The notes under the pieces: generated by a model
The model's database searches: none
Told to the model about the DNA's origin: nothing
What the model saw: the letters and a program-made list of their open reading frames with translations, nothing else
Made by a program: the position numbers and the translations under genes
Virus record (IMG/VR): IMGVR_UViG_3300048060_000061
Coordinates: 39,197-103,196 of that record
DNA: 64,000 nt
Origin: a virus
Taxonomy: Duplodnaviria; Caudoviricetes
Strand: one strand, 5' to 3'
Part shown: in pieces, positions 637 through 59,348 of the stretch
How the letters are laid out: every line of letters starts with the position of its first letter
Position numbering within the stretch: the stretch's first letter is position 1

Positions 637-1200
637 TCATAATGATTTCTCCAATCTCTCTATCGCATCGACATACAGTTGCCCGCGTGGGGGGCAGGCA
701 TAATCACTGCCGCCCCAATGGTCGAGGGCATCAAATTTCTTGAACGATCGGCAACCGCTATTATACCAATCTTGCCCATCTTTATACCATCTAATAAGAA
801 TGTAACCATCCTCGCGACGGGGATCCTTTAATAGAACCTCTATCCCTTTGCAATTTTCGATTGTTGCAAAATTAAGTTTGGCGTCGCGCAGGTTGGCCCC
901 AATCAGATTGGCGTCGCTCAGGTTGGCCCAGCGCAGGTTGGCCCCGTTCAGGTTGGCCCCGCTCAGGTCGGCCCCGCTCAGGTCGGCCCCGCGCAGGTCG
1001 GCCCCAATCAGCTTGGCCCCGCGCAGGTCGGCTCCAATTAGCTTGGCCCCGCGCAGGTTGGCCTCGCGCAGGTCGGCCCCGCTCAGATTAGTGTTCGTCA
1101 AGTTAGCCCTGCTCAGGTTAGCGTCACGCAGATCGGCGGCGCGCAGGTCGCCGCCGGTCAGGTTGGCCCTACTCAGATTTTGCTTTTGCTCTGTATTCAT
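637..1200 (-). CDS. Pentapeptide-repeat protein (paralog 1)
   Basis: A(D/N)LxG/R repeats plus C-terminal EDGYILIRWYKDGQDWYNSGCRSF domain; AAAGGA RBS. Confidence 0.92.
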   Translation of the reverse strand: MNTEQKQNLSRANLTGGDLRAADLRDANLSRANLTNTNLSGADLREANLRGAKLIGADLRGAKLIGADLRGADLSGADLSGANLNGANLRWANLSDANLIGANLRDAKLNFATIENCKGIEVLLKDPRREDGYILIRWYKDGQDWYNSGCRSFKKFDALDHWGGSDYACPPRGQLYVDAIERLEKSL

Positions 1201-3027: not shown

Positions 3028-3085
3028 AATCAGTTCCTTTCATAGTGCGAAAATTCAAATCATCCCAAAATATATTCCACTTTTG

Positions 3086-3523
3086 TCACGTTTTAGGCAC
3101 GAACCCTTTGCAATTTTCTAACCTGGCCTTGTTTAGGTTAGCCTCGTTCAAGTTGGCTCCGTTCAAGTTGGCTCCGTTTAAGTTGGCTCCGCGCAAGTCA
3201 GCCTCACTCAGGTTAGCGTCGGTCAGGTTGGCGTCGCGCAAGTCAGCCCAGCGCAAGTCAGCGCAGGTCAGGTTAGTATTTGTCAGGTTGGCCCCGATCA
3301 GGTCGGCTCTGATCAGTTTGGCATCGGTCAGATCGGCTCCGATCAACTTGGCTCCGATCAGCTTGGCTCCGATTAGTTTGGCGCTGTTCAAGTCGGCATC
3401 GCGTAAGTCGGCCCTGCACAGGTTGGCCCCGATTAGCTTGGCCCCGCACAGGATAACCCTGTTCAGATCGGCTCCGTATAGGTCAGCTCCGTATAGGTTG
3501 GCGTCGCGCAGATTTTTCTTCAT
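3086..3523 (-). CDS. Pentapeptide-repeat protein (paralog 2, lacks the C-terminal domain)
   Basis: Continuous ADL/ANL/AKL pentapeptides. Confidence 0.9.
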   Translation of the reverse strand: MKKNLRDANLYGADLYGADLNRVILCGAKLIGANLCRADLRDADLNSAKLIGAKLIGAKLIGADLTDAKLIRADLIGANLTNTNLTCADLRWADLRDANLTDANLSEADLRGANLNGANLNGANLNEANLNKARLENCKGFVPKT

Positions 3524-3550
3524 AATGTTTAGTCCTTTATAGTATTTTCT

Positions 3551-4129
3551 TTAGTTCCCTAAAATGGCATCAATGTATTGTTGACCCCGTTCTTTATCTG
3601 GGTAGTTCTTGCTACCCCAATGGTCGAGGGCAACAGATTTCTTGAATGATCGGCAACCGCTATTATACCAATCTTGCCCATCTTTATACCATCTAATCAG
3701 GATGTAACCATCCTCGCGGGGATCCTTTAATAGAACCTTTATTCCTTTGCAATTTTCGATTGTTGCAAAGTTAAAAGTAGCGTCGCGCAGATTGGCGTCG
3801 CGCAGTTTGGCTCCGATTATCTTGGCCCAACGCAGGTCGGCCCCACTCAGGTTAGCTCCGATCAGGTTGGCGTCGCGCAGGTAGGCCCCGTATAGGTTGG
3901 CCCCGCGCAGGTCGACATTACTCAGGTCGGCCCCGCGCAGGTTAGCCCCGCTCAGGTTGGCCCCACTCAGGTTGGCCTCGCGCAGGTCGGCCCCGTGTAG
4001 GTCAGCCCTGTGTAGGTCGGCTCCGTGTAGGTCGGCCCAGCGCAGGTCGGTCCAACTCAGATCAGCTCCGTTCAGATTGGCGTTCATTAGGTTGGCCCTG
4101 CTCAGATTTTGCTTTTGCTCTGTATTCAT
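3551..4129 (-). CDS. Pentapeptide-repeat protein (paralog 3)
   Basis: Pentapeptide repeats plus the shared C-terminal domain. Confidence 0.92.
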   Translation of the reverse strand: MNTEQKQNLSRANLMNANLNGADLSWTDLRWADLHGADLHRADLHGADLREANLSGANLSGANLRGADLSNVDLRGANLYGAYLRDANLIGANLSGADLRWAKIIGAKLRDANLRDATFNFATIENCKGIKVLLKDPREDGYILIRWYKDGQDWYNSGCRSFKKSVALDHWGSKNYPDKERGQQYIDAILGN

Positions 4130-13613: not shown

Positions 13614-13698
13614 AGGGGAATGATGGAATTGAACCATCTGCTAACCACCTGTCATATTTAAGCAAGTGTTTTACAGACACCCGACAGGAACATTCCCC
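13614..13698 (-). tRNA. Atypical tRNA-Tyr(GTA)-like RNA lacking a canonical D-arm
   Basis: GGGGAAT/ATTCCCC acceptor; GGTGT-CTGTAAA-ACACT; GATGG-TTCAATT-CCATC T-arm; only ~10 nt in the D region. Confidence 0.6.
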
Positions 13699-13702
13699 AT
13701 AA

Positions 13703-13777
13703 TGGCCCCTCCCGGATTCGAACCGGGACTGTCTGCATTTTAAGTGCAGTGCCTCATACCAATTGCGCTAAGGGGCC
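13703..13777 (-). tRNA. tRNA-Leu(TAA), short variable loop
   Basis: GGCCCCT acceptor; CTGCA-CTTAAAA-TGCAG; CCCGG-TTCGAAT-CCGGG. Confidence 0.85.
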
Positions 13778-13910
13778 AAATTATCTTACCTGAAAGTCTA
13801 CTTAAATCGTCTCAACTTCAAACCTACCGTTTCTATTTTCATTTACTTCCCTTTTATCACTAGCCATCATTTGCGATTAAAGTGTACGGTATAGGTATAC
13901 CAGTTTTCCA

Positions 13911-13947
13911 TCGAACCGGGACTGTCTGCATTTTAAGTGCAGTGCCT
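13911..13947. repeat. 37-nt exact copy of tRNA-Leu(TAA) segment 13718-13754
   Basis: TCGAACCGGGACTGTCTGCATTTTAAGTGCAGTGCCT occurs at both positions. Confidence 0.95.
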
Positions 13948-13956
13948 GTTCTTTTT

Positions 13957-14230
13957 ACTTACTCACAAACGCCCGTGGGGAAACCATGCAACACCGGGCC
14001 TGATTTCGGTTTAAAATCACTGATCCTCCAAACGCCCGTGGGGAAACCGACCTCCACAACCCACGATAACCGTTGAACCCACTGATCCTCCAAACGCCCG
14101 TGGGGAAACCGAATTGATCCTTATCAAAACAAACATCCCTGATCCTCCAAACGCCCGTGGGGAAACCTGTGAAGTGGGTTCGCGCATGTTCAACCGCGAA
14201 CCTGATCCTCCAAACGCCCGTGGGGAAACC
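13957..14230 (-). CRISPR. CRISPR array 1: four full 29-nt repeats, one degenerate terminal repeat, four spacers
   Basis: Repeat (minus) GGTTTCCCCACGGGCGTTTGGAGGATCAG at 14202-14230, 14139-14167, 14082-14110, 14020-14048; partial at 13966-13985; spacers 34, 28, 33, 34 nt. Confidence 0.95.
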
Positions 14231-14335
14231 CCTGAAAAGAGCAAATAAAAAGGTAATTCGCTCACTGTTAATATCAGCCGAATAATCTTGGCTGCACGTA
14301 ACTAGTGTCTTGGTTGAGCAGTCCCAACCGTGCAG
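14231..14335 (-). ncRNA. Putative omegaRNA/tracrRNA scaffold overlapping the 3' end of the nuclease gene
   Basis: Hairpins GGTTGG-GACTGC-TCAACC and CAGCC...GGCTG, then GAGCGAATTACC and the 5' strand of a 14-bp stem; TnpB omegaRNAs overlap the ORF end. Confidence 0.7.
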
Positions 14336-15653
14336 ACTTTTCCTCTAGCCTGCGTTCAAATTGCCCGGTTCGTGCTAATAAAATTACCTTAACATCTTTA
14401 TAAGGCGTAAATAACCGTATCTCAGGATCATTCAGCCTGGCCAAGATATTCCGAGCAGCATTTGTATCCGCTTGCAATACCTTCCCGTCGAAACAGTAAA
14501 ACCTATCCCCATTACGATGCCCCAATAGGATACCGTGCCGGGAATCAGTTTGCGAGGTATATGCAGCATTAACTGTTTTAATCGTAGAACCTCTACGATT
14601 AGATACCGATTCTATTGCCTCAGCTATAGCACCCTTCGTCCAACCAGCAAGACGGCGGTTTTGATTCTTGCCGTATGACTTGCCATTTATCGGGTTCGTT
14701 AAATCTTCGGTGACTATAATGTCGGCCTTGTCAACTACTGAATGAGCCGCCTTGAAAATCTTGTCTCTTACATTGGCTGTATGTATACGCTTGCGCTCAT
14801 CCAGCTTTTTACGCCCCAAGTTGTTTTTTAGAATATTATCACACTTATGGGGCTTCGCTTCCGCTATTGCCTTTAGCTTGTTTCTACGTTGATACTTGGT
14901 TTTAAGATAGTCTGATTCCTTACTTAACAATTCTCCTAGTCCTTCACCGTGGTGTTTCCCATCTGAATCTACAAAGACCTCAGTATAACCTTTATCAATT
15001 CCTATAGTCCCATCACCACTGGGTCGAGTAACGCAAACCTTTTCCTCATCAATAGCATAATGTACTTCAATACGTCCATTACGTAGGATCAACCGAAGTG
15101 TTCCCGATGGAGTATTGTTGCTATTCAAAGGGATAGCTATGCGCTTCCCAGATTCCAAGCTCATTACCTTAAGCCAAATCTTACCACCCTTTTCAAAAGT
15201 CGTATAGCATTGGGAATCCAGTACAATCTGATTATCAACCTTGGTTTTACCGTGCTTAAAATATTTACGCATCATACGACGCAAATAACTATCTTTCAAC
15301 CAATTGTCATATTTAAGCAGAGTATAAAGGCGTTTACGCTCGTCATTATCATCAGTCCTTTGGCGTATTGCCTTTCGCACTTTGACTTTGGCAGCTTCAC
15401 GGTAAGTAACTATATCTGCGAAAGTATCTCTTAAGGTTTCATTCCGAAGACGGGCGGCAATATTAAAGTGCCTACCTTCGGCGGTCCATTGATTTCTTAT
15501 TTGACGGTGTGTTAATTCTACACCTTGGACTGAACCAAAGCGTTGCCAGACTTCAGCCCGTAGTTTGCCCAATCGACTAGCCATTTCAGTTAATTGAGCT
15601 AACTTTCCTTCATTAAGATTTTGGCTGTAGATAATCCGAGTAACTTTACTCAT
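14274..15653 (-). CDS. tnpB: TnpB/miniature Cas12-family RNA-guided nuclease (resembles the V-U4/Cas12n clade)
   Basis: 459 aa; RuvC-I GIDKG (D220), RuvC-II VTEDL (E316), NAAYTSQ, RuvC-III ADTNAARNI (D396); degenerate Zn finger; CRISPR array 43 nt downstream. Confidence 0.88.
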   Translation of the reverse strand: MSKVTRIIYSQNLNEGKLAQLTEMASRLGKLRAEVWQRFGSVQGVELTHRQIRNQWTAEGRHFNIAARLRNETLRDTFADIVTYREAAKVKVRKAIRQRTDDNDERKRLYTLLKYDNWLKDSYLRRMMRKYFKHGKTKVDNQIVLDSQCYTTFEKGGKIWLKVMSLESGKRIAIPLNSNNTPSGTLRLILRNGRIEVHYAIDEEKVCVTRPSGDGTIGIDKGYTEVFVDSDGKHHGEGLGELLSKESDYLKTKYQRRNKLKAIAEAKPHKCDNILKNNLGRKKLDERKRIHTANVRDKIFKAAHSVVDKADIIVTEDLTNPINGKSYGKNQNRRLAGWTKGAIAEAIESVSNRRGSTIKTVNAAYTSQTDSRHGILLGHRNGDRFYCFDGKVLQADTNAARNILARLNDPEIRLFTPYKDVKVILLARTGQFERRLEEKSARLGLLNQDTSYVQPRLFG

Positions 15654-15660
15654 CAGATAC

Positions 15661-15867
15661 TTATACTACCTTGTCTTTCTTTTTTACCGTAGGTGGATTG
15701 ACCTGAATATCACCGCTAATTCCCAACAGAATCAGAGCTTCAACATATGATTGCCAGCGAATAAAGCCAGATTTTTTAGCAATATCTATAAGTTTTTCTT
15801 TGAAATCTTTTTCAATCCACATTTGGAGGTTGATTTGATTTTCACGGGTCATATTTTTGCTCCTCAA
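15661..15867 (-). CDS. RHH-like regulator upstream of tnpB
   Basis: INLQMWIEKDFKEKLIDIAKK...SYVEALI pattern; 7-nt gap to tnpB. Confidence 0.55.
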   Translation of the reverse strand: MRSKNMTRENQINLQMWIEKDFKEKLIDIAKKSGFIRWQSYVEALILLGISGDIQVNPPTVKKKDKVV

Positions 15868-15923
15868 TCATATTCAATATACACCTCCTATACAGAATTG
15901 TCAACTCTGGAATAGATATACTA

Positions 15924-16041
15924 TAATTAAGCAAGAATTGATAACTCTTGCTTAATTAGTTATAATGTAGACAAGCAAATATAGCCCGGCGCAAGCCTCG
16001 CACACATCAGGTCCGGAAACTCACCTTCACGGTGAGTTTTT
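15924..16041 (+). promoter_or_regulatory. Promoter, conserved leader and terminator (copy 3) with overlapping palindrome
   Basis: TTGATA(15938)-17-TATAAT(15961); same leader and hairpin; TAATTAAGCAAGA-N9-TCTTGCTTAATTA inverted repeat. Confidence 0.8.
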
Positions 16042-50822: not shown

Positions 50823-51452
50823 TTAGTTCCCTAAAATGGCATTGACATACAGTTGCCCGCGTGGGGGGCAGGCATAATTACTCCCACTCCAATGGTCGAG
50901 GGCAACAGATTTCTTGAATGATCGGCAACCGCTATTATACCAATCTTGCCCATCTTTATACCATCTAATCAGGATGTAACCATCCTCGCGGGGATCATGC
51001 AATAAAACCTCTATCCCTTCGCAATTTTTGATTGTTGCAAAGTTAAAAGTAGCGTCGCGCAGATTGGCGTCGCGCAGTTTGGCTCCGATTATCTTGGTCC
51101 AACGCAGGTCGGCCCCACTCAGGTTGGCCTCGCGCAGGTCGGCTCCGTGTAGGTAGACCCCGTATAGGTTGGCCCCGCTCAGGTCGACATTACTCAGGTC
51201 GGCCCCGCACAGGTTAGCCCAGTACAGTTTGGCCTTGTACAGTTTAGCGTCGCGCAGGTCAGCCCCAATCAGATTGGCGTCGGTCAGGTCGGCCCAGCGC
51301 AGGTCGGCCTTGCTCAGGTTGGCATCGTGTAGGTTAGCATCGCGCAGTTTGGCCCCGTGCAGGTTAGCCCCGCTCAGGTCGGTGCCGCTCAGGTTAGCCC
51401 CGATCAAGTCGGCGCGTTTACCATATTTAGATTTTAATATTTGTTCTATCAT
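50823..51452 (-). CDS. Pentapeptide-repeat protein (paralog 5)
   Basis: Pentapeptide repeats plus the shared C-terminal domain. Confidence 0.92.
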   Translation of the reverse strand: MIEQILKSKYGKRADLIGANLSGTDLSGANLHGAKLRDANLHDANLSKADLRWADLTDANLIGADLRDAKLYKAKLYWANLCGADLSNVDLSGANLYGVYLHGADLREANLSGADLRWTKIIGAKLRDANLRDATFNFATIKNCEGIEVLLHDPREDGYILIRWYKDGQDWYNSGCRSFKKSVALDHWSGSNYACPPRGQLYVNAILGN

Positions 51453-56327: not shown

Positions 56328-57902
56328 TTGATTTGTTTCCGAAGGTGTTGAGTAGGCCGGTAGTTTTCGGTCAATGTTCTGTATGTGATGACAAAAACTT
56401 GTTAACTGGTGATGATTTGGAAAGATGGAAAATTATACCTCCTGGTGGAAATCACGAAAATTTACCACTAAAATTAAGAACATCCGCAAAATTCAGTGAT
56501 GCTTTCCGTAAGTTAGCAATGAATAAACCGAGTTATACACTTCCTAAAACAGATGGTAATTTGACTACTGGAGCCTTTTTTCACCCTAATGAAACACGCA
56601 GAATAAATCAAACGGAAAAAACGAGGATTGCAAGTTTTCCAGACAAGTATCAATTTGTTGGAAACGGAAAAGATATTGCCGCAAGAATCGGCAACTCAGT
56701 CCCCCCCCCTCTTAATGAAAGCCATTGCTACCCAAATCCGTCACAACTTATGGAACGGTGAACCATTGACCAGATACCCTAAAACAATGACCTATCCTGA
56801 AATATTAGAAACTGCCTGGCAAGACCATCTTGAGCCAAAAGCTCCTGACGCGCCAACGGTGATCAGTACTTTTGCCGGGGGTGGTGGCTCATCGCTGGGC
56901 TATTCGATGGCTGGCTACCGGGAACTATTGGCGGTTGAATGGGATGATAACGCCGTGGAAACGTTCAAGTTGAATTTTCCTGACGTGCCGGTCTATCACG
57001 GTGATATTGCAAAGCTGTCAGTTAAGGAATGTATGAAATTGGCTGGATTATCTGAACCGGGTGAGCTTGATTTGCTTGATGGTTCACCGCCGTGCCAATC
57101 ATATTCGACAGCCGGTAAACGTGATATGAATGATCCGCGTAGTCAATTGTTTAGAGAATTTGTTAGACTTCTTCGAGGGCTTCAACCCAAAGTTTTTGTA
57201 ATGGAGAATGTTCCTGGTCTGATCAAAGGCAAGATGAAGTTAATCTTTGCTGAGATCATGCAAGAACTCAAGGCTAGTGGTTATCAGGTCCGATGCAAGA
57301 AGCTTAATGCAATGTATTTCTATGTCCCGCAAAGTCGGGAACGGTTGATTTTTATTGGAGTAAGGAATGACTTGGGAGTTGAAGGGAATTTTCCGAAAGC
57401 TGAAAGTAGGCCGGTAACTTTGAAAGAAGCAATAAATATTCAATCTTTGGTTCTATTTCCTCACGGTGAATATAAAGGCCGCATTGTCAATGCGGCCTTT
57501 GAACCTTCTCCAACTCTTTGCAAAACTGGTTTACCGAGTTATAAATATGAAGTGTATGATATAGGTCAAGAACCGCCAAAAGCGTCTAACTTAAAAAAGA
57601 AACGTTGGCAACAAACCAAGAAAGGCGCGAACCATAAAGAAAGGTTTAGTTTGTCACGCTTGGCTTGGAACAAGCCAAGCGTGACAGTTCAAAAAACTGC
57701 TACGGGATCGACAGGTATCATGCATCCTGATGAACCCAGAGAATTATATGTATCCGAATTGAAACGTATAGGAAGTTATCCTGATAATTATTTGTTTCAT
57801 GGAAAATGGACCAATATTTTGAACAGAATTGGCAATAGTGTCCCTCCCCTCTTTATGCGATCAATTGCCAATCATATTAAAACTCATATTCTCGGAGAAT
57901 GA
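56324..57902 (+). CDS. dcm: C5-cytosine DNA methyltransferase preceded by an extra TRD/motif IX-X module, joined across a C9 run
   Basis: STFAGGGG, GSPPCQ, MENV, QSRERL and IGNSVPP; a second HP..RR...ASFPD...IGNSVPP lies upstream in another frame. Confidence 0.85.
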
Positions 57903-57944: not shown

Positions 57945-59348
57945 ATGGAAATAACAGAAGCGAAACCGACCGACTTTATACCAGACAAAAATAACGCTAA
58001 TAAAGGAACCCAACGCGGGCAAAAGATGATACAAGAAAGCTTGCGTGAAGATGGCCCGGCTCGATCTATCGTAGTTGATGCTCACAATAACATAGTAGCT
58101 GGTAACAAAACTTTAGAAAATGCAGTAGATATTGGAATTGATAAGGCCATTGTGGTTGAGACGACCGGTAATGAATTGGTAGTTACGAAGCGGATGGACT
58201 GGGATTTGTATGAGGATGAATCGCCTAGACGGTATGCTTGGCGTGATAATCAGTCAGCTCTCGTTTCAATTGATTTCAATCCAGAAATATTGGCTGAGGA
58301 GATAGCGCAGGGTGTAGACTTTAGCGGTATCTTCACGCAGGATGAGCAGTTGTCAATCCTTGAAAAGGAGCCAGATGTACCACCAGAGATAACACCGCCC
58401 ATTGACAAAGCCGAAGAACTACAGGAGATTTGGCAATGCGAAACGGGCCAAATATGGCAGATTGAAAGCAAGGCTAATCCGGGCCATTATCACCGGCTAA
58501 TCTGTGGGGATTGTCGGGATATGGAGACGGTGCAGGCGGTGACCAAGGGCAAGCCGATTAATGGCATCTTTACCAGTCCGCCTTATGCAATGCAACGGGC
58601 CAAACAATATGGGGGTGTTGAGGCTGACAAGTATGTCGAATGGTGGGAAGCGGTGCAAGAGAATATGCGGGCGGCGTTGGCGGAGGATGGTAGCTTTTTC
58701 GTGAATATTAAGCCGCATTGCAAGGATGGACAGAGGGTGTTGTATGTCTTTGATTTGGTGTTGGCGATGGTGCGGCGGTGGGGATGGCGGTATGTGGATG
58801 AGTTGTGTTGGACGCATCAGGGGATTATGGGCAAGTGGGATAACAGATTGAAAAATCAATTTGAGCCTATCTACCATTTTTCAGAAAATAAGCTCATTAA
58901 GCTAAATCATAAAAATGTAATTAAGGAATTCTCGGAAAATAGCAGAATAACCGAACTGTCTGTTTATAATGGTATTGATAATGCGCCCGCTTATTCAGGC
59001 AGTTTGTTTAGGAATAGGGGCAAGAAAAGCGCCATTTTTGACGGCGCATTACCAGGGAATAATTTACATATCACTTTGGGAGCAACACCAACTGATACTG
59101 GCGCATATCAAGCCGCCACCTTCCCCATAAAACTTCCTACCTTCTTCATCCGCGCCTACTCCGATCCTCTCGACATTTGGCTTGATCCATTCGCCGGTAG
59201 TGGTACTGTAGTCTGCGCTGCTGAGAACGAGGGGCGAATAGGGCTAATGATTGAGAAGCTGCCCAAATATTGCGCAGTAATTTTAGAAAGAATGGCAGAT
59301 ATGGGCCTTGAACCTATCTTAGTAGAAAGTCAATCAACACTACATTGA
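57945..59348 (+). CDS. ParB-N-fused N4C/N6A DNA methyltransferase
   Basis: HRLICGD, TSPPY, ATFP and DPFAGSGT. Confidence 0.88.
   Translation: MEITEAKPTDFIPDKNNANKGTQRGQKMIQESLREDGPARSIVVDAHNNIVAGNKTLENAVDIGIDKAIVVETTGNELVVTKRMDWDLYEDESPRRYAWRDNQSALVSIDFNPEILAEEIAQGVDFSGIFTQDEQLSILEKEPDVPPEITPPIDKAEELQEIWQCETGQIWQIESKANPGHYHRLICGDCRDMETVQAVTKGKPINGIFTSPPYAMQRAKQYGGVEADKYVEWWEAVQENMRAALAEDGSFFVNIKPHCKDGQRVLYVFDLVLAMVRRWGWRYVDELCWTHQGIMGKWDNRLKNQFEPIYHFSENKLIKLNHKNVIKEFSENSRITELSVYNGIDNAPAYSGSLFRNRGKKSAIFDGALPGNNLHITLGATPTDTGAYQAATFPIKLPTFFIRAYSDPLDIWLDPFAGSGTVVCAAENEGRIGLMIEKLPKYCAVILERMADMGLEPILVESQSTLH

What the first reader, a model, noticed from the sequence alone, without database searches (positions are those of the whole stretch)
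13911..15867. Phage-encoded miniature TnpB/Cas12 nuclease directly coupled to its own CRISPR array
Seen: a 459-aa protein with all three RuvC acidic residues (D220, E316, D396), a small RHH-like gene upstream, and a co-oriented 4-spacer array starting 43 nt after the stop codon, with the degenerate repeat at the distal end. No TnpA, serine recombinase, cas1 or cas2 is in the window. Known: Cas12 effectors arose repeatedly from TnpB, and Cas12n/V-U4 are early intermediates. Inference: a self-contained, multi-guide type V system that the phage uses against competing elements. The KVTRIIYS...WQRFGS N-terminus recalls the V-U4 clade, from memory only.
Basis: partly seen in the sequence, partly recalled or inferred. 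Interest (0 to 1): 0.95.

Follow-up and report, generated by a model that had tools for sequence, protein, structure and literature searches.

The report
Phage IS607 TnpB with guide mini-array
A 103-kb phage carries a small transposon-derived RNA-guided DNA cutter (TnpB) whose guide-RNA gene has a short CRISPR-like array of four spacers inserted into its last hairpin. This is a clear natural example of the recently described half-way stage between transposon guide RNAs and CRISPR, not a new kind of system.

Summary
A 459-aa TnpB (14274-15653, minus strand; D220/E316/D396 invariant in 38 homologues) is followed, 43 nt after its stop, by four perfect 29-nt repeats, four spacers and a chimeric fifth repeat.

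- The protein is not Cas12n/V-U4-like. It belongs to a large IS607 TnpB family: about half of 105 fetched relatives have a serine-recombinase TnpA directly upstream.
- Only the five closest members (78-100% identity, one clade, support 100) are in the array-bearing clade. Arrays were seen in three, one contig ends in repeat 1, and no DNA was held for P0002. Two still have TnpA.
- The guide-RNA scaffold is intact, with strong base-pair covariation.
- The array sits in the loop of the scaffold's terminal hairpin.
- Behind the array the ancestral right end (..AAAAAGAACAG) is kept. It is followed by a fifth guide, an exact 35-nt copy of the phage's own tRNA-Leu(UAA).
- The repeat is a chimera. Its 5' part has the type I-E format (20/29 identical to other arrays in this phage). 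Its 3' end, GGAGGATCAG, imitates the transposon RNA end AAAGGAACAG.
- The phage has no cas1, cas2 or tnpA, and no protospacer was found.

The closest known systems are TranC and Cas12r. This scan has noted similar phage modules on other DNA, so this is a new member of a known kind.

The parts
15876..15904 (-). Promoter-like site (TTGACA-17-TATATT, 11/12) just upstream of the small ORF
   Evidence: This is a consensus match only; the number of sites in the region is not above the shuffle expectation.
15924..15958 (.). 16-nt inverted repeat (94% complementary, 3-nt gap) upstream of the operon; a possible operator
   Evidence: I2. The operator function is inferred.
15661..15867 (-). Orphan 68-aa ORF (63 aa from the ATG at 15852) that ends 7 nt before tnpB
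   Evidence: No homologue and no significant family match; RHH is only a weak lead.
14274..15653 (-). tnpB, 459 aa, IS607 lineage, RuvC triad D220/E316/D396
14248..14335 (-). Core of the omegaRNA/reRNA scaffold (helix GGTTG/CAACC, helix CACT-AGTTA/TAAC-AGTG, conserved GCGAATTACC). It overlaps the last 62 nt of tnpB.
   Evidence: 99.6% of cells are paired, 7 of 13 pairs show compensatory changes, and 0 of 500 shuffles reach this.
14231..14262 (-). Linker holding the 5' strand of the terminal hairpin (CCTTTTTATTTGCTC, 14239-14253); the candidate anti-repeat
14202..14230 (-). Repeat 1
14168..14201 (-). Spacer 1 (34 nt)
   Evidence: No match in the phage's own genome, INPHARED or IMG/VR.
14139..14167 (-). 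Repeat 2
14111..14138 (-). Spacer 2 (28 nt)
14082..14110 (-). Repeat 3
14049..14081 (-). Spacer 3 (33 nt)
14020..14048 (-). Repeat 4
13986..14019 (-). Spacer 4 (34 nt)
13966..13985 (-). First 20 nt of a fifth, chimeric repeat
13946..13965 (-). Ancestral 3' strand of the terminal hairpin and right end of the IS607 element (TGAGTAAGTAAAAAGAACAG)
   Evidence: It is homologous to the ..AAGAAAAAAGGAACAG end of about 34 relatives. It forms a 14-bp stem with 14239-14252 in the minimum-energy fold of the whole transcript.
13911..13945 (-). Fifth guide, at the ancestral flank-guide position: a 35-nt exact copy of part of tRNA-Leu(UAA)
   Evidence: (D3).
13702..13778 (-). Intact tRNA-Leu(UAA). It holds the matching 35 nt (13718-13752), preceded on the minus strand by ATGAG (13753-13757).

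Best explanation
The locus is an IS607-type TnpB module that has lost its transposase and left end inside a tailed phage. It is transcribed as small ORF, tnpB, guide-RNA scaffold and array.

Shown:
- The nuclease is intact.
- Its guide-RNA scaffold keeps every conserved helix of the family.
- The array lies in the loop of the scaffold's last hairpin.
- The ancestral right end and a flank guide follow the array.
- Each repeat is a hybrid: a type I-E-format repeat in its 5' two thirds, and a 3' end (GGAGGATCAG) that copies the guide-proximal end of the transposon RNA (AAAGGAACAG).

Inferred:
- The single 5' strand of the terminal hairpin (CCUUU..) acts as an anti-repeat. It pairs either with the ancestral 3' strand or with the GGAGG of any repeat, within one long RNA or after the RNA is cut.
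- This places AUCAG or AACAG plus one of five guides in the nuclease.
- The loaded TnpB then cuts DNA that matches the guide next to a purine-rich motif ending in GAG.
- CAG at the end of each repeat spares the array itself.
- The phage most likely uses the module against rival mobile elements or co-infecting phages.
- New spacers, if any are still added, would come from a host type I-E Cas1-Cas2.
For: Nuclease:
- TnpB family matches and an invariant RuvC triad.
- AlphaFold model with mean pLDDT 80. Its best fold matches are Cas12f, ISDra2 TnpB and the IS607 ISFba1 TnpB.

IS607 origin:
- tblastn with the TnpA of L005 finds a serine recombinase directly upstream in about half of 105 relatives.
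- The Helicobacter felis prophage copy is 52% identical.

Scaffold:
- 43 sequences, 13 pairs, 99.6% paired, 7 pairs with double compensatory changes, 0 of 500 shuffles as good. The window keeps all pairs.

Array inside the hairpin:
- Canonical relatives read GCGAAT.ACCTTTT, a short loop, AAGAAAAAAGGAACAG, then unrelated flank.
- In the window, L008 and L009 the array replaces that short loop, and the same right end follows it.
- The minimum-energy fold of the 441-nt transcript keeps the scaffold helices and the 14-bp bracketing stem.

Conserved pairing of gene and array:
- The window, P0002, L005, L008 and L009 form one clade (SH-aLRT 100) nested among TnpA-bearing elements without arrays.
- Their spacers differ, but the repeat end GGAGGATCA is identical.
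- The linker can pair with the repeat in each: 5 to about 15 bp, with GGAGG/GGGAGG opposite CCTTT/CCTTTTTT.

Type I-E format:
- The repeat is 29 nt with a 57-63-nt period. It is 20/29 identical to the phage's other arrays (0 of 200,000 shuffles reach this).
- That repeat type forms 61-nt-period arrays in 20 of 401 sampled Chloroflexota genomes.

Expression:
- There is an 11/12 promoter-like site upstream, and no terminator-like site between the gene and the array.
Against: - No protospacer was found for any of the four spacers, so targeting and its purpose are unproven.
- The hairpin of the repeat is weak in the window. The predicted anti-repeat duplex is short (10 bp with an internal loop, -10.3 kcal/mol, against -16.5 for the ancestral stem).
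- Covariation between repeat and linker rests on only four loci.
- The terminal guide matches the phage's own intact tRNA-Leu next to a plausible motif. This would be self-cutting if that guide were active.
- The TNB domain lacks the usual zinc-binding cysteines.
- There is no expression data.
Confidence: 0.68

Rival explanations
1. The locus is a decaying selfish element. An IS607 copy landed in the phage and lost TnpA. The repeats are inert debris of right-end rearrangements, and at most the terminal (tRNA-Leu) guide is used, as in any TnpB.
For: TnpA and the left end are gone. No protospacers were found. The ancestral right end and flank guide are still in place. Many relatives in viral contigs are plain IS copies.
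Against: The four repeats are identical to the base, and the spacers are of regular size. The ORF and all scaffold helices are intact. The same architecture, with other spacers and the same GGAGGATCA end, recurs in three independent relatives, two of them with intact TnpA. This argues for retention rather than debris.
Confidence: 0.15
2. The array does not serve this TnpB. It is a type I-E-style mini-array read by the host Cascade, or by the phage's other TnpB (424 aa, genome 16059-17333), and merely lies next to the IS607 remnant.
For: The 5' two thirds of the repeat match the phage's other type I-E-format arrays (20/29). Repeat length and period are the same. A second, unrelated TnpB with such arrays exists in the same genome.
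Against: The 3' handle that type I-E systems keep on the crRNA (..GGACCG) is replaced by ATCAG, and the stem is weakened (CCCCAC/GTTTGG). The array is enclosed between the two strands of this TnpB's own terminal hairpin. The replaced end copies this family's RNA end. Relatives from other samples carry the same hybrid repeat with the same TnpB. The leaders of the other arrays are unrelated.
Confidence: 0.07
3. The spacers were not acquired by a Cas1-Cas2 integrase. They are fossil flanks of earlier insertion sites, stacked by repeated right-end duplication or recombination during transposition. On this reading the array records where the element has been, and widens its homing range.
For: The last guide is exactly what a flank guide looks like: it starts at the shared AG after ..AACAG, and the source site has a ..GAG motif. 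Altae-Tran et al. 2023 (PMC10691335) discuss guide capture by duplication of omegaRNA segments and irregular omegaRNA arrays. No adaptation genes are in the phage.
Against: The repeat resembles a type I-E repeat, not the omegaRNA segment it replaces. The 32-nt spacers in L008 and L009 and the 33-34-nt spacers here match the ruler of type I-E-format arrays. None of about 95 canonical relatives shows a two-unit intermediate.
Confidence: 0.1

Closest known systems
TranC, transposon-CRISPR intermediates (Jin et al., Cell 2025, doi 10.1016/j.cell.2025.09.004). Known to me only through PMC13565253, PMC13639567 and bioRxiv 10.64898/2026.03.27.714800; LaTranC is PDB 9jfq.
   Same: A compact TnpB-sized effector of the IS605/IS607 lineage with a short downstream array and no cas1/cas2. 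The guide RNA is thought to be split into a scaffold and repeat-spacer units. TranC systems have been identified in viral genomes as well, and one active TranC (CauTranC9) lies in a phage genome.
   Different: By fold the protein is only a remote relative of LaTranC (Foldseek rank 29, 11% identity), and there is no sequence hit. I could not test whether this clade is among the numbered TranC clades. Here the array is visibly nested in the terminal hairpin, the ancestral right end and flank guide are kept, close relatives still have TnpA, and the repeat has the type I-E format.
Cas12r-CRISPR of Thermus Lalka phages (bioRxiv 10.64898/2026.04.20.719267; Lalka27a, PQ109076)
   Same: A phage-encoded TnpB-derived nuclease followed within a few tens of nt by a mini-array of 29-nt repeats that resemble type I-E repeats, with 32-33-nt spacers. 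There are no adaptation genes. The PAM is purine-rich (ARG), against the ..GAG motif inferred here. The repeats share TGGAGG (18/29 identical; 27 of 200,000 shuffles reach this).
   Different: Cas12r is 564 aa and reported to work without a tracrRNA. This protein is 459 aa and keeps a full, covarying omegaRNA scaffold and transposon right end. The proteins are only remotely alike (hhalign probability 84.6% over 85 columns; no tblastn hit).
IS607-family elements: serine-recombinase TnpA plus TnpB with a 3' omegaRNA/reRNA (Karvelis 2021, PMC8612924; Chen 2018, PMC6188088; ISFba1 TnpB, PDB 8iaz, PMC11061315)
   Same: The protein family, the scaffold overlapping the 3' end of tnpB, the right end followed by a flank guide, and the purine-rich motif left of the left end.
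   Different: The window has no TnpA and no left end. A four-spacer array is inserted into the terminal hairpin. The locus sits in a phage with its own promoter and a small orphan ORF. There is no Rfam RAGATH-18 match at E<=1.
Cas12n / type V-U4
   Same: A small RuvC effector with a short downstream array and no adaptation genes.
   Different: No sequence or profile match to any solved Cas12n chain, and none among the 50 best fold matches. The N-terminal resemblance was recalled from memory and is not borne out.

Membership tests
IS607-family TnpB with omegaRNA | RuvC triad and TNB domain of TnpB | tested here: met
IS607-family TnpB with omegaRNA | Serine-recombinase TnpA (MerR HTH plus resolvase) directly upstream | tested here: not met
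   Absent from the whole phage. Present in about half of 105 relatives, including L005 and L009 of the array clade. The window is therefore a TnpA-less derivative.
IS607-family TnpB with omegaRNA | Structured guide-RNA scaffold overlapping the 3' end of tnpB, ending in a conserved right end followed by a flank guide | tested here: met
   The right end ..AAAAAGAACAG lies at 13946-13957.
TranC (transposon-CRISPR intermediate) | TnpB-lineage compact effector with an adjacent CRISPR-like array, conserved among relatives | tested here: met
TranC (transposon-CRISPR intermediate) | [quoted passage not shown] | not testable with these tools
   Only in-silico pairing of the linker with the repeat was possible. 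RNA sequencing or reconstitution is needed.
TranC (transposon-CRISPR intermediate) | Sequence membership in a published TranC clade | not testable with these tools
   Clade sequences are not held. LaTranC (9jfq) is only a remote fold match.
Cas12n / type V-U4 | Detectable sequence or closest-fold relationship to Cas12n | tested here: not met
Cas12r-CRISPR | Protein homology to LalCas12r | tested here: inconclusive
   hhalign probability 84.6%, E 6.8e-6, over 85 columns of RuvC only. No tblastn hit to Lalka27a, although the record is in the collection.
Cas12r-CRISPR | 29-nt type I-E-like repeats with 32-33-nt spacers directly after the gene | tested here: met
Type I-E CRISPR array | 29-nt repeat with a stable CCCC.C/G.GGGG stem and a 3' handle ending ..ACCG; cas genes of type I-E | tested here: not met
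   Length and period are met and the 5' 17 nt are 15/17 identical. However, the stem is weakened, the handle is replaced by ATCAG, and there are no cas genes in the phage.

The most novel reading that the evidence does not exclude
The array-bearing clade would show a route to type V arrays that has been discussed but not documented step by step. An IS607 element that is still mobile (TnpA intact in L005, present in L009) took a class 1 (type I-E) repeat-spacer unit into the loop of its guide RNA's last hairpin. It then remodelled only the repeat's 3' handle to imitate the transposon RNA end, and so became a multi-guide transposon that can borrow the host's type I-E spacer integrase. The phage copy would be the domesticated end point.
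Probability: 0.3. Interest if true: 0.7.

Novelty: new member of a known kind. Interest (0 to 1): 0.5.

Why it matters
The locus shows in one place several steps of the proposed path from transposon guide RNA to CRISPR:
- an unchanged TnpB;
- an unchanged scaffold;
- an array nested in the terminal hairpin;
- the old right end with its flank guide still attached;
- sister elements that still carry the transposase.

It also adds a second, independent case, after Cas12r, of a phage TnpB-type nuclease whose repeats have the type I-E format. This supports the idea that such mini-systems depend on host class 1 adaptation machinery. As a 459-aa nuclease with a probable short purine motif, it is also a candidate compact editor. 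None of this is new in principle after the TranC and Cas12r work.

Tried and rejected
- Cas12n/V-U4 kinship: rejected.
- The array as a chance or assembly artefact: rejected by relatives L005, L008 and L009.
- RAGATH-18 or any other Rfam family for the scaffold: no match at E<=1.
- Repeat pattern in IMG/VR, and the linker pattern in JGI metagenomes: nothing found.
- Spacer targets: none in the phage itself at up to 6 mismatches, none in INPHARED by blastn, and none in IMG/VR by exact 22-24-nt seeds. The tRNA-Leu 25-mer is also absent from IMG/VR.
- TnpA remnant in the window: none by tblastn at 1e-3.
- Homologues of the 68-aa ORF: none.
- tRNA genes as a general target of the family: rejected. 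Only L019 has a tRNA nearby, and it lies 40 nt beyond the right end.
- Shared leader with the phage's other arrays: none.
- Extra copies of this scaffold in the phage: none.
- A precise logo for the motif left of the left end: not possible, because the left-end register differs between subfamilies. Only '..purines..GAG' can be stated.
- The careful tree search did not finish. The quick IQ-TREE tree is used instead.
- The host was not identified. The Chloroflexota sampling gives only a hint.
Full report
**Setting.** The window is bases 39197-103196 of a 103,196-bp IMG/VR virus record with direct terminal repeats. It encodes a tape-measure protein, a large terminase and several DNA methyltransferases, so it is a tailed phage. 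The finding lies between the tail genes and a cluster of four tRNA genes.

**Observation.**
- The minus-strand ORF 14274-15653 encodes 459 aa.
- It passes NCBIfam's guided_TnpB model (3e-30, 105.8 bits, cut-off 100) and Pfam's Cas12f1-like TNB domain.
- PHROGs calls it a transposase.
- In an alignment of 38 homologues, D220, E316 and D396 are invariant.
- An AlphaFold model (mean pLDDT 80) matches Cas12f, ISDra2 TnpB and the IS607 ISFba1 TnpB best. LaTranC is at rank 29 and no Cas12n is among the first 50.
- Forty-three nt after the stop come four identical 29-nt repeats, with spacers of 34, 28, 33 and 34 nt. A fifth copy keeps only its first 20 nt.
- The whole phage has no Cas1, Cas2, resolvase or Y1 transposase.

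The upstream 68-aa ORF is an orphan with no homologue, and its RHH nature is unverified.

**Family.**
- The protein has more than 1,700 relatives at E<=0.001, the best 120 at 58-84% identity.
- I fetched about 105 loci that encode relatives.
- A tblastn search with the TnpA of L005 finds a MerR-plus-resolvase gene directly upstream of tnpB in about half of them.
- A Helicobacter felis prophage copy is 52% identical.
- This is the IS607 family, not Cas12n. No solved Cas12n, TranC or TnpB chain matches by sequence or profile.

**Guide-RNA scaffold.**
- In canonical relatives the 3' end of tnpB and the bases after it read: helix GGTTG..CAACC; helix C.C.AGTTG..CAAC.G.G enclosing a variable stem; GCGAAT.ACC; a short terminal hairpin CCTTTT..AAAAGG; then AACAG and unrelated flank.
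- On 43 sequences the first two helices are 99.6% paired, and 7 of 13 pairs show compensatory double changes. No shuffle of 500 and no slid register comes close.
- The window keeps every pair, with an A-U in place of G-C at one position, changed on both sides.
- Only one copy of this scaffold exists in the phage.

**Where the array sits.**
- In the window, L008 (80% identical protein) and L009 (78%), the short loop of the terminal hairpin is replaced by repeat-spacer units.
- The ancestral 3' strand and right end follow the last, chimeric repeat: window ..TGAGTAAGTAAAAAGAACAG, L008 ..TGAGTAATTATGAATAAGAAAAAAGGAACAG, L009 ..GAGTAAGGAAAAAGGAACAG.
- L005 (78%) has the same linker and first repeat, and then its contig ends.
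- The minimum-energy fold of the 441-nt window transcript keeps the scaffold helices and a 14-bp stem (14239-14252 with 13951-13964) that brackets the whole array.
- None of about 95 more distant loci has an array in this position.
- In a quick maximum-likelihood tree, the window, P0002, L005, L008 and L009 form one clade (SH-aLRT 100) nested among TnpA-bearing elements without arrays.
- L005 has an intact 209-aa TnpA and L009 a TnpA cut by the contig end. L008 keeps only a 32-aa remnant, and the window has none.

**The repeat is a hybrid.**
- The same phage carries four arrays with the repeat GTTTTCCCCACAGGCGTGGGGGTGGACCG and a 61-64-nt period. They lie next to a second, unrelated 424-aa TnpB.
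- That repeat type forms long 61-nt-period arrays in 20 of 401 sampled Chloroflexota genomes. From general knowledge, it has the type I-E format: 29 nt, a CCCCAC/GTGGGG stem and a handle ending ..ACCG.
- My repeat is 20/29 identical to it in ungapped register (0 of 200,000 composition-preserving shuffles reach this), and 15 of the first 17 bases match.
- The 3' part differs: GGAGGATCAG instead of GGGTGGACCG. This end is shared by all four array-bearing loci (GGAGGATCA), and it resembles the family's RNA end AAAGGAACAG.
- The GGAGG can pair with the CCTTT of the hairpin's 5' strand through G-U pairs. In L008 (GGGAGG opposite CCTTTTTT, continuing to about 15 bp) and L009 (GTGGAGG opposite CCTTTAC) the two sides appear to change together. 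With four loci, this is suggestive only.

**The fifth guide.**
- After ..AACAG come 35 nt (13945-13911) identical to 13752-13718 of the phage's intact tRNA-Leu(UAA) gene, 193 nt away.
- In TnpA-bearing relatives, the DNA left of the left end is purine-rich and ends in GAG in nearly every case: AGGAG, AAGAG, GAGAG, GGGAG, TTGAG, ATGAG. In TnpB systems this is where the target-adjacent motif lies.
- The tRNA gene reads ATGAG before the matching 35 nt. The shared AG is what a serine-recombinase crossover would leave.
- This looks like a true IS607 insertion into a tRNA-Leu copy. However, the tRNA's 5' half is not at the other end of the locus, and the copy stops at spacer length. Why the intact gene is tolerated is unexplained.
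- The right end and every repeat end in CAG, not GAG. That would protect the locus from its own guides; this is inferred.

**Function.**
- An 11/12 promoter-like site lies upstream of the small ORF, and no terminator-like site separates gene and array.
- I found no protospacer in the phage itself, in INPHARED or in IMG/VR. The biological target is therefore unknown.
- The most likely reading (0.68) is a working multi-guide TnpB of the TranC kind, used by the phage against other mobile DNA.
- The main rival is an inert, decaying IS remnant (0.15).

**Comparison with what is known.**
- TranC systems are described as IS605/IS607-lineage TnpBs whose right-end RNA is split into tracrRNA and crRNA. 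They have 3-20 repeats and no cas genes, and one active member lies in a phage (PMC13565253; PMC13639567; bioRxiv 10.64898/2026.03.27.714800).
- Altae-Tran et al. (PMC10691335) list 40 V-U branches. They leave open whether arrays arose by duplication of omegaRNA segments or by association with existing arrays.
- Cas12r of Thermus Lalka phages (bioRxiv 10.64898/2026.04.20.719267) is a phage TnpB-derived effector with 29-nt type I-E-like repeats, 32-33-nt spacers and an ARG PAM. Its authors propose spacer uptake by the host type I-E system.
- Its repeat shares TGGAGG with mine (18/29), but the proteins are only remotely alike.

This locus is therefore a new member of a known kind. Three features may be new: the array nested in the hairpin, the retained right end, and sister elements that still carry TnpA. 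I could not check them against the TranC paper, which is not held.

Earlier notes of this scan report several similar phage TnpB-array modules on other DNA, and a second system in this same phage.

Noticed in passing
L117:2060-3334 (genome 16059-17333, outside the window); arrays at genome 15867-15944, 17438-17803 and 23791-23932, and at window 49198-49476: A second, unrelated 424-aa TnpB (NCBIfam guided_TnpB, 1.2e-68) lies in the same phage next to arrays of a canonical type I-E-format repeat, GTTTTCCCCACAGGCGTGGGGGTGGACCG. Three of the array leaders are near-identical.
   Followed up: partly
L117:4290-5972 (genome 18289-19971): A 560-aa protein matches the Ro60-related RNA-binding protein Rsr (NCBIfam, 3e-168, below the equivalog cut-off). 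It lies between the second TnpB and its arrays.
   Followed up: no
window 13614-13699: An 86-nt tRNA-like stretch inside the tRNA cluster. ARAGORN does not call it, and it scores 28.6 bits against Rfam tRNA-Sec (below threshold).
   Followed up: no
window 637-1200, 3045-4129, 50189-51452: Long 15-nt-period tandem repeats inside ORFs, the period expected of pentapeptide-repeat proteins. The copies at 3780-3811, 50418-50449 and 51052-51083 share the same unit.
   Followed up: no
window 46496-48076, 56628-57902, 57945-59348: Three DNA methyltransferase genes, two of them with ParB-like N-terminal parts (PHROGs).
   Followed up: no
window 14274-15653, residues 343-403: The TNB (zinc-ribbon) domain of this whole IS607 subfamily has only one conserved cysteine (C387) instead of the usual CxxC..CxxC.
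   Followed up: no
L003 and L029: The same IS607 element (proteins nearly identical) sits at two different sites with different flanks on both sides. This indicates recent mobility in this family (Poribacteria MAG and a metagenome contig).
   Followed up: partly
(P0002 contigs; no DNA held): The closest relative (84% identity) has a 93-aa ORF that overlaps its start by 4 nt, and a 226-nt gap after its stop. That gap is long enough for a two-to-three-repeat array. Its neighbours are small ORFs without families, as in phages.
   Followed up: no
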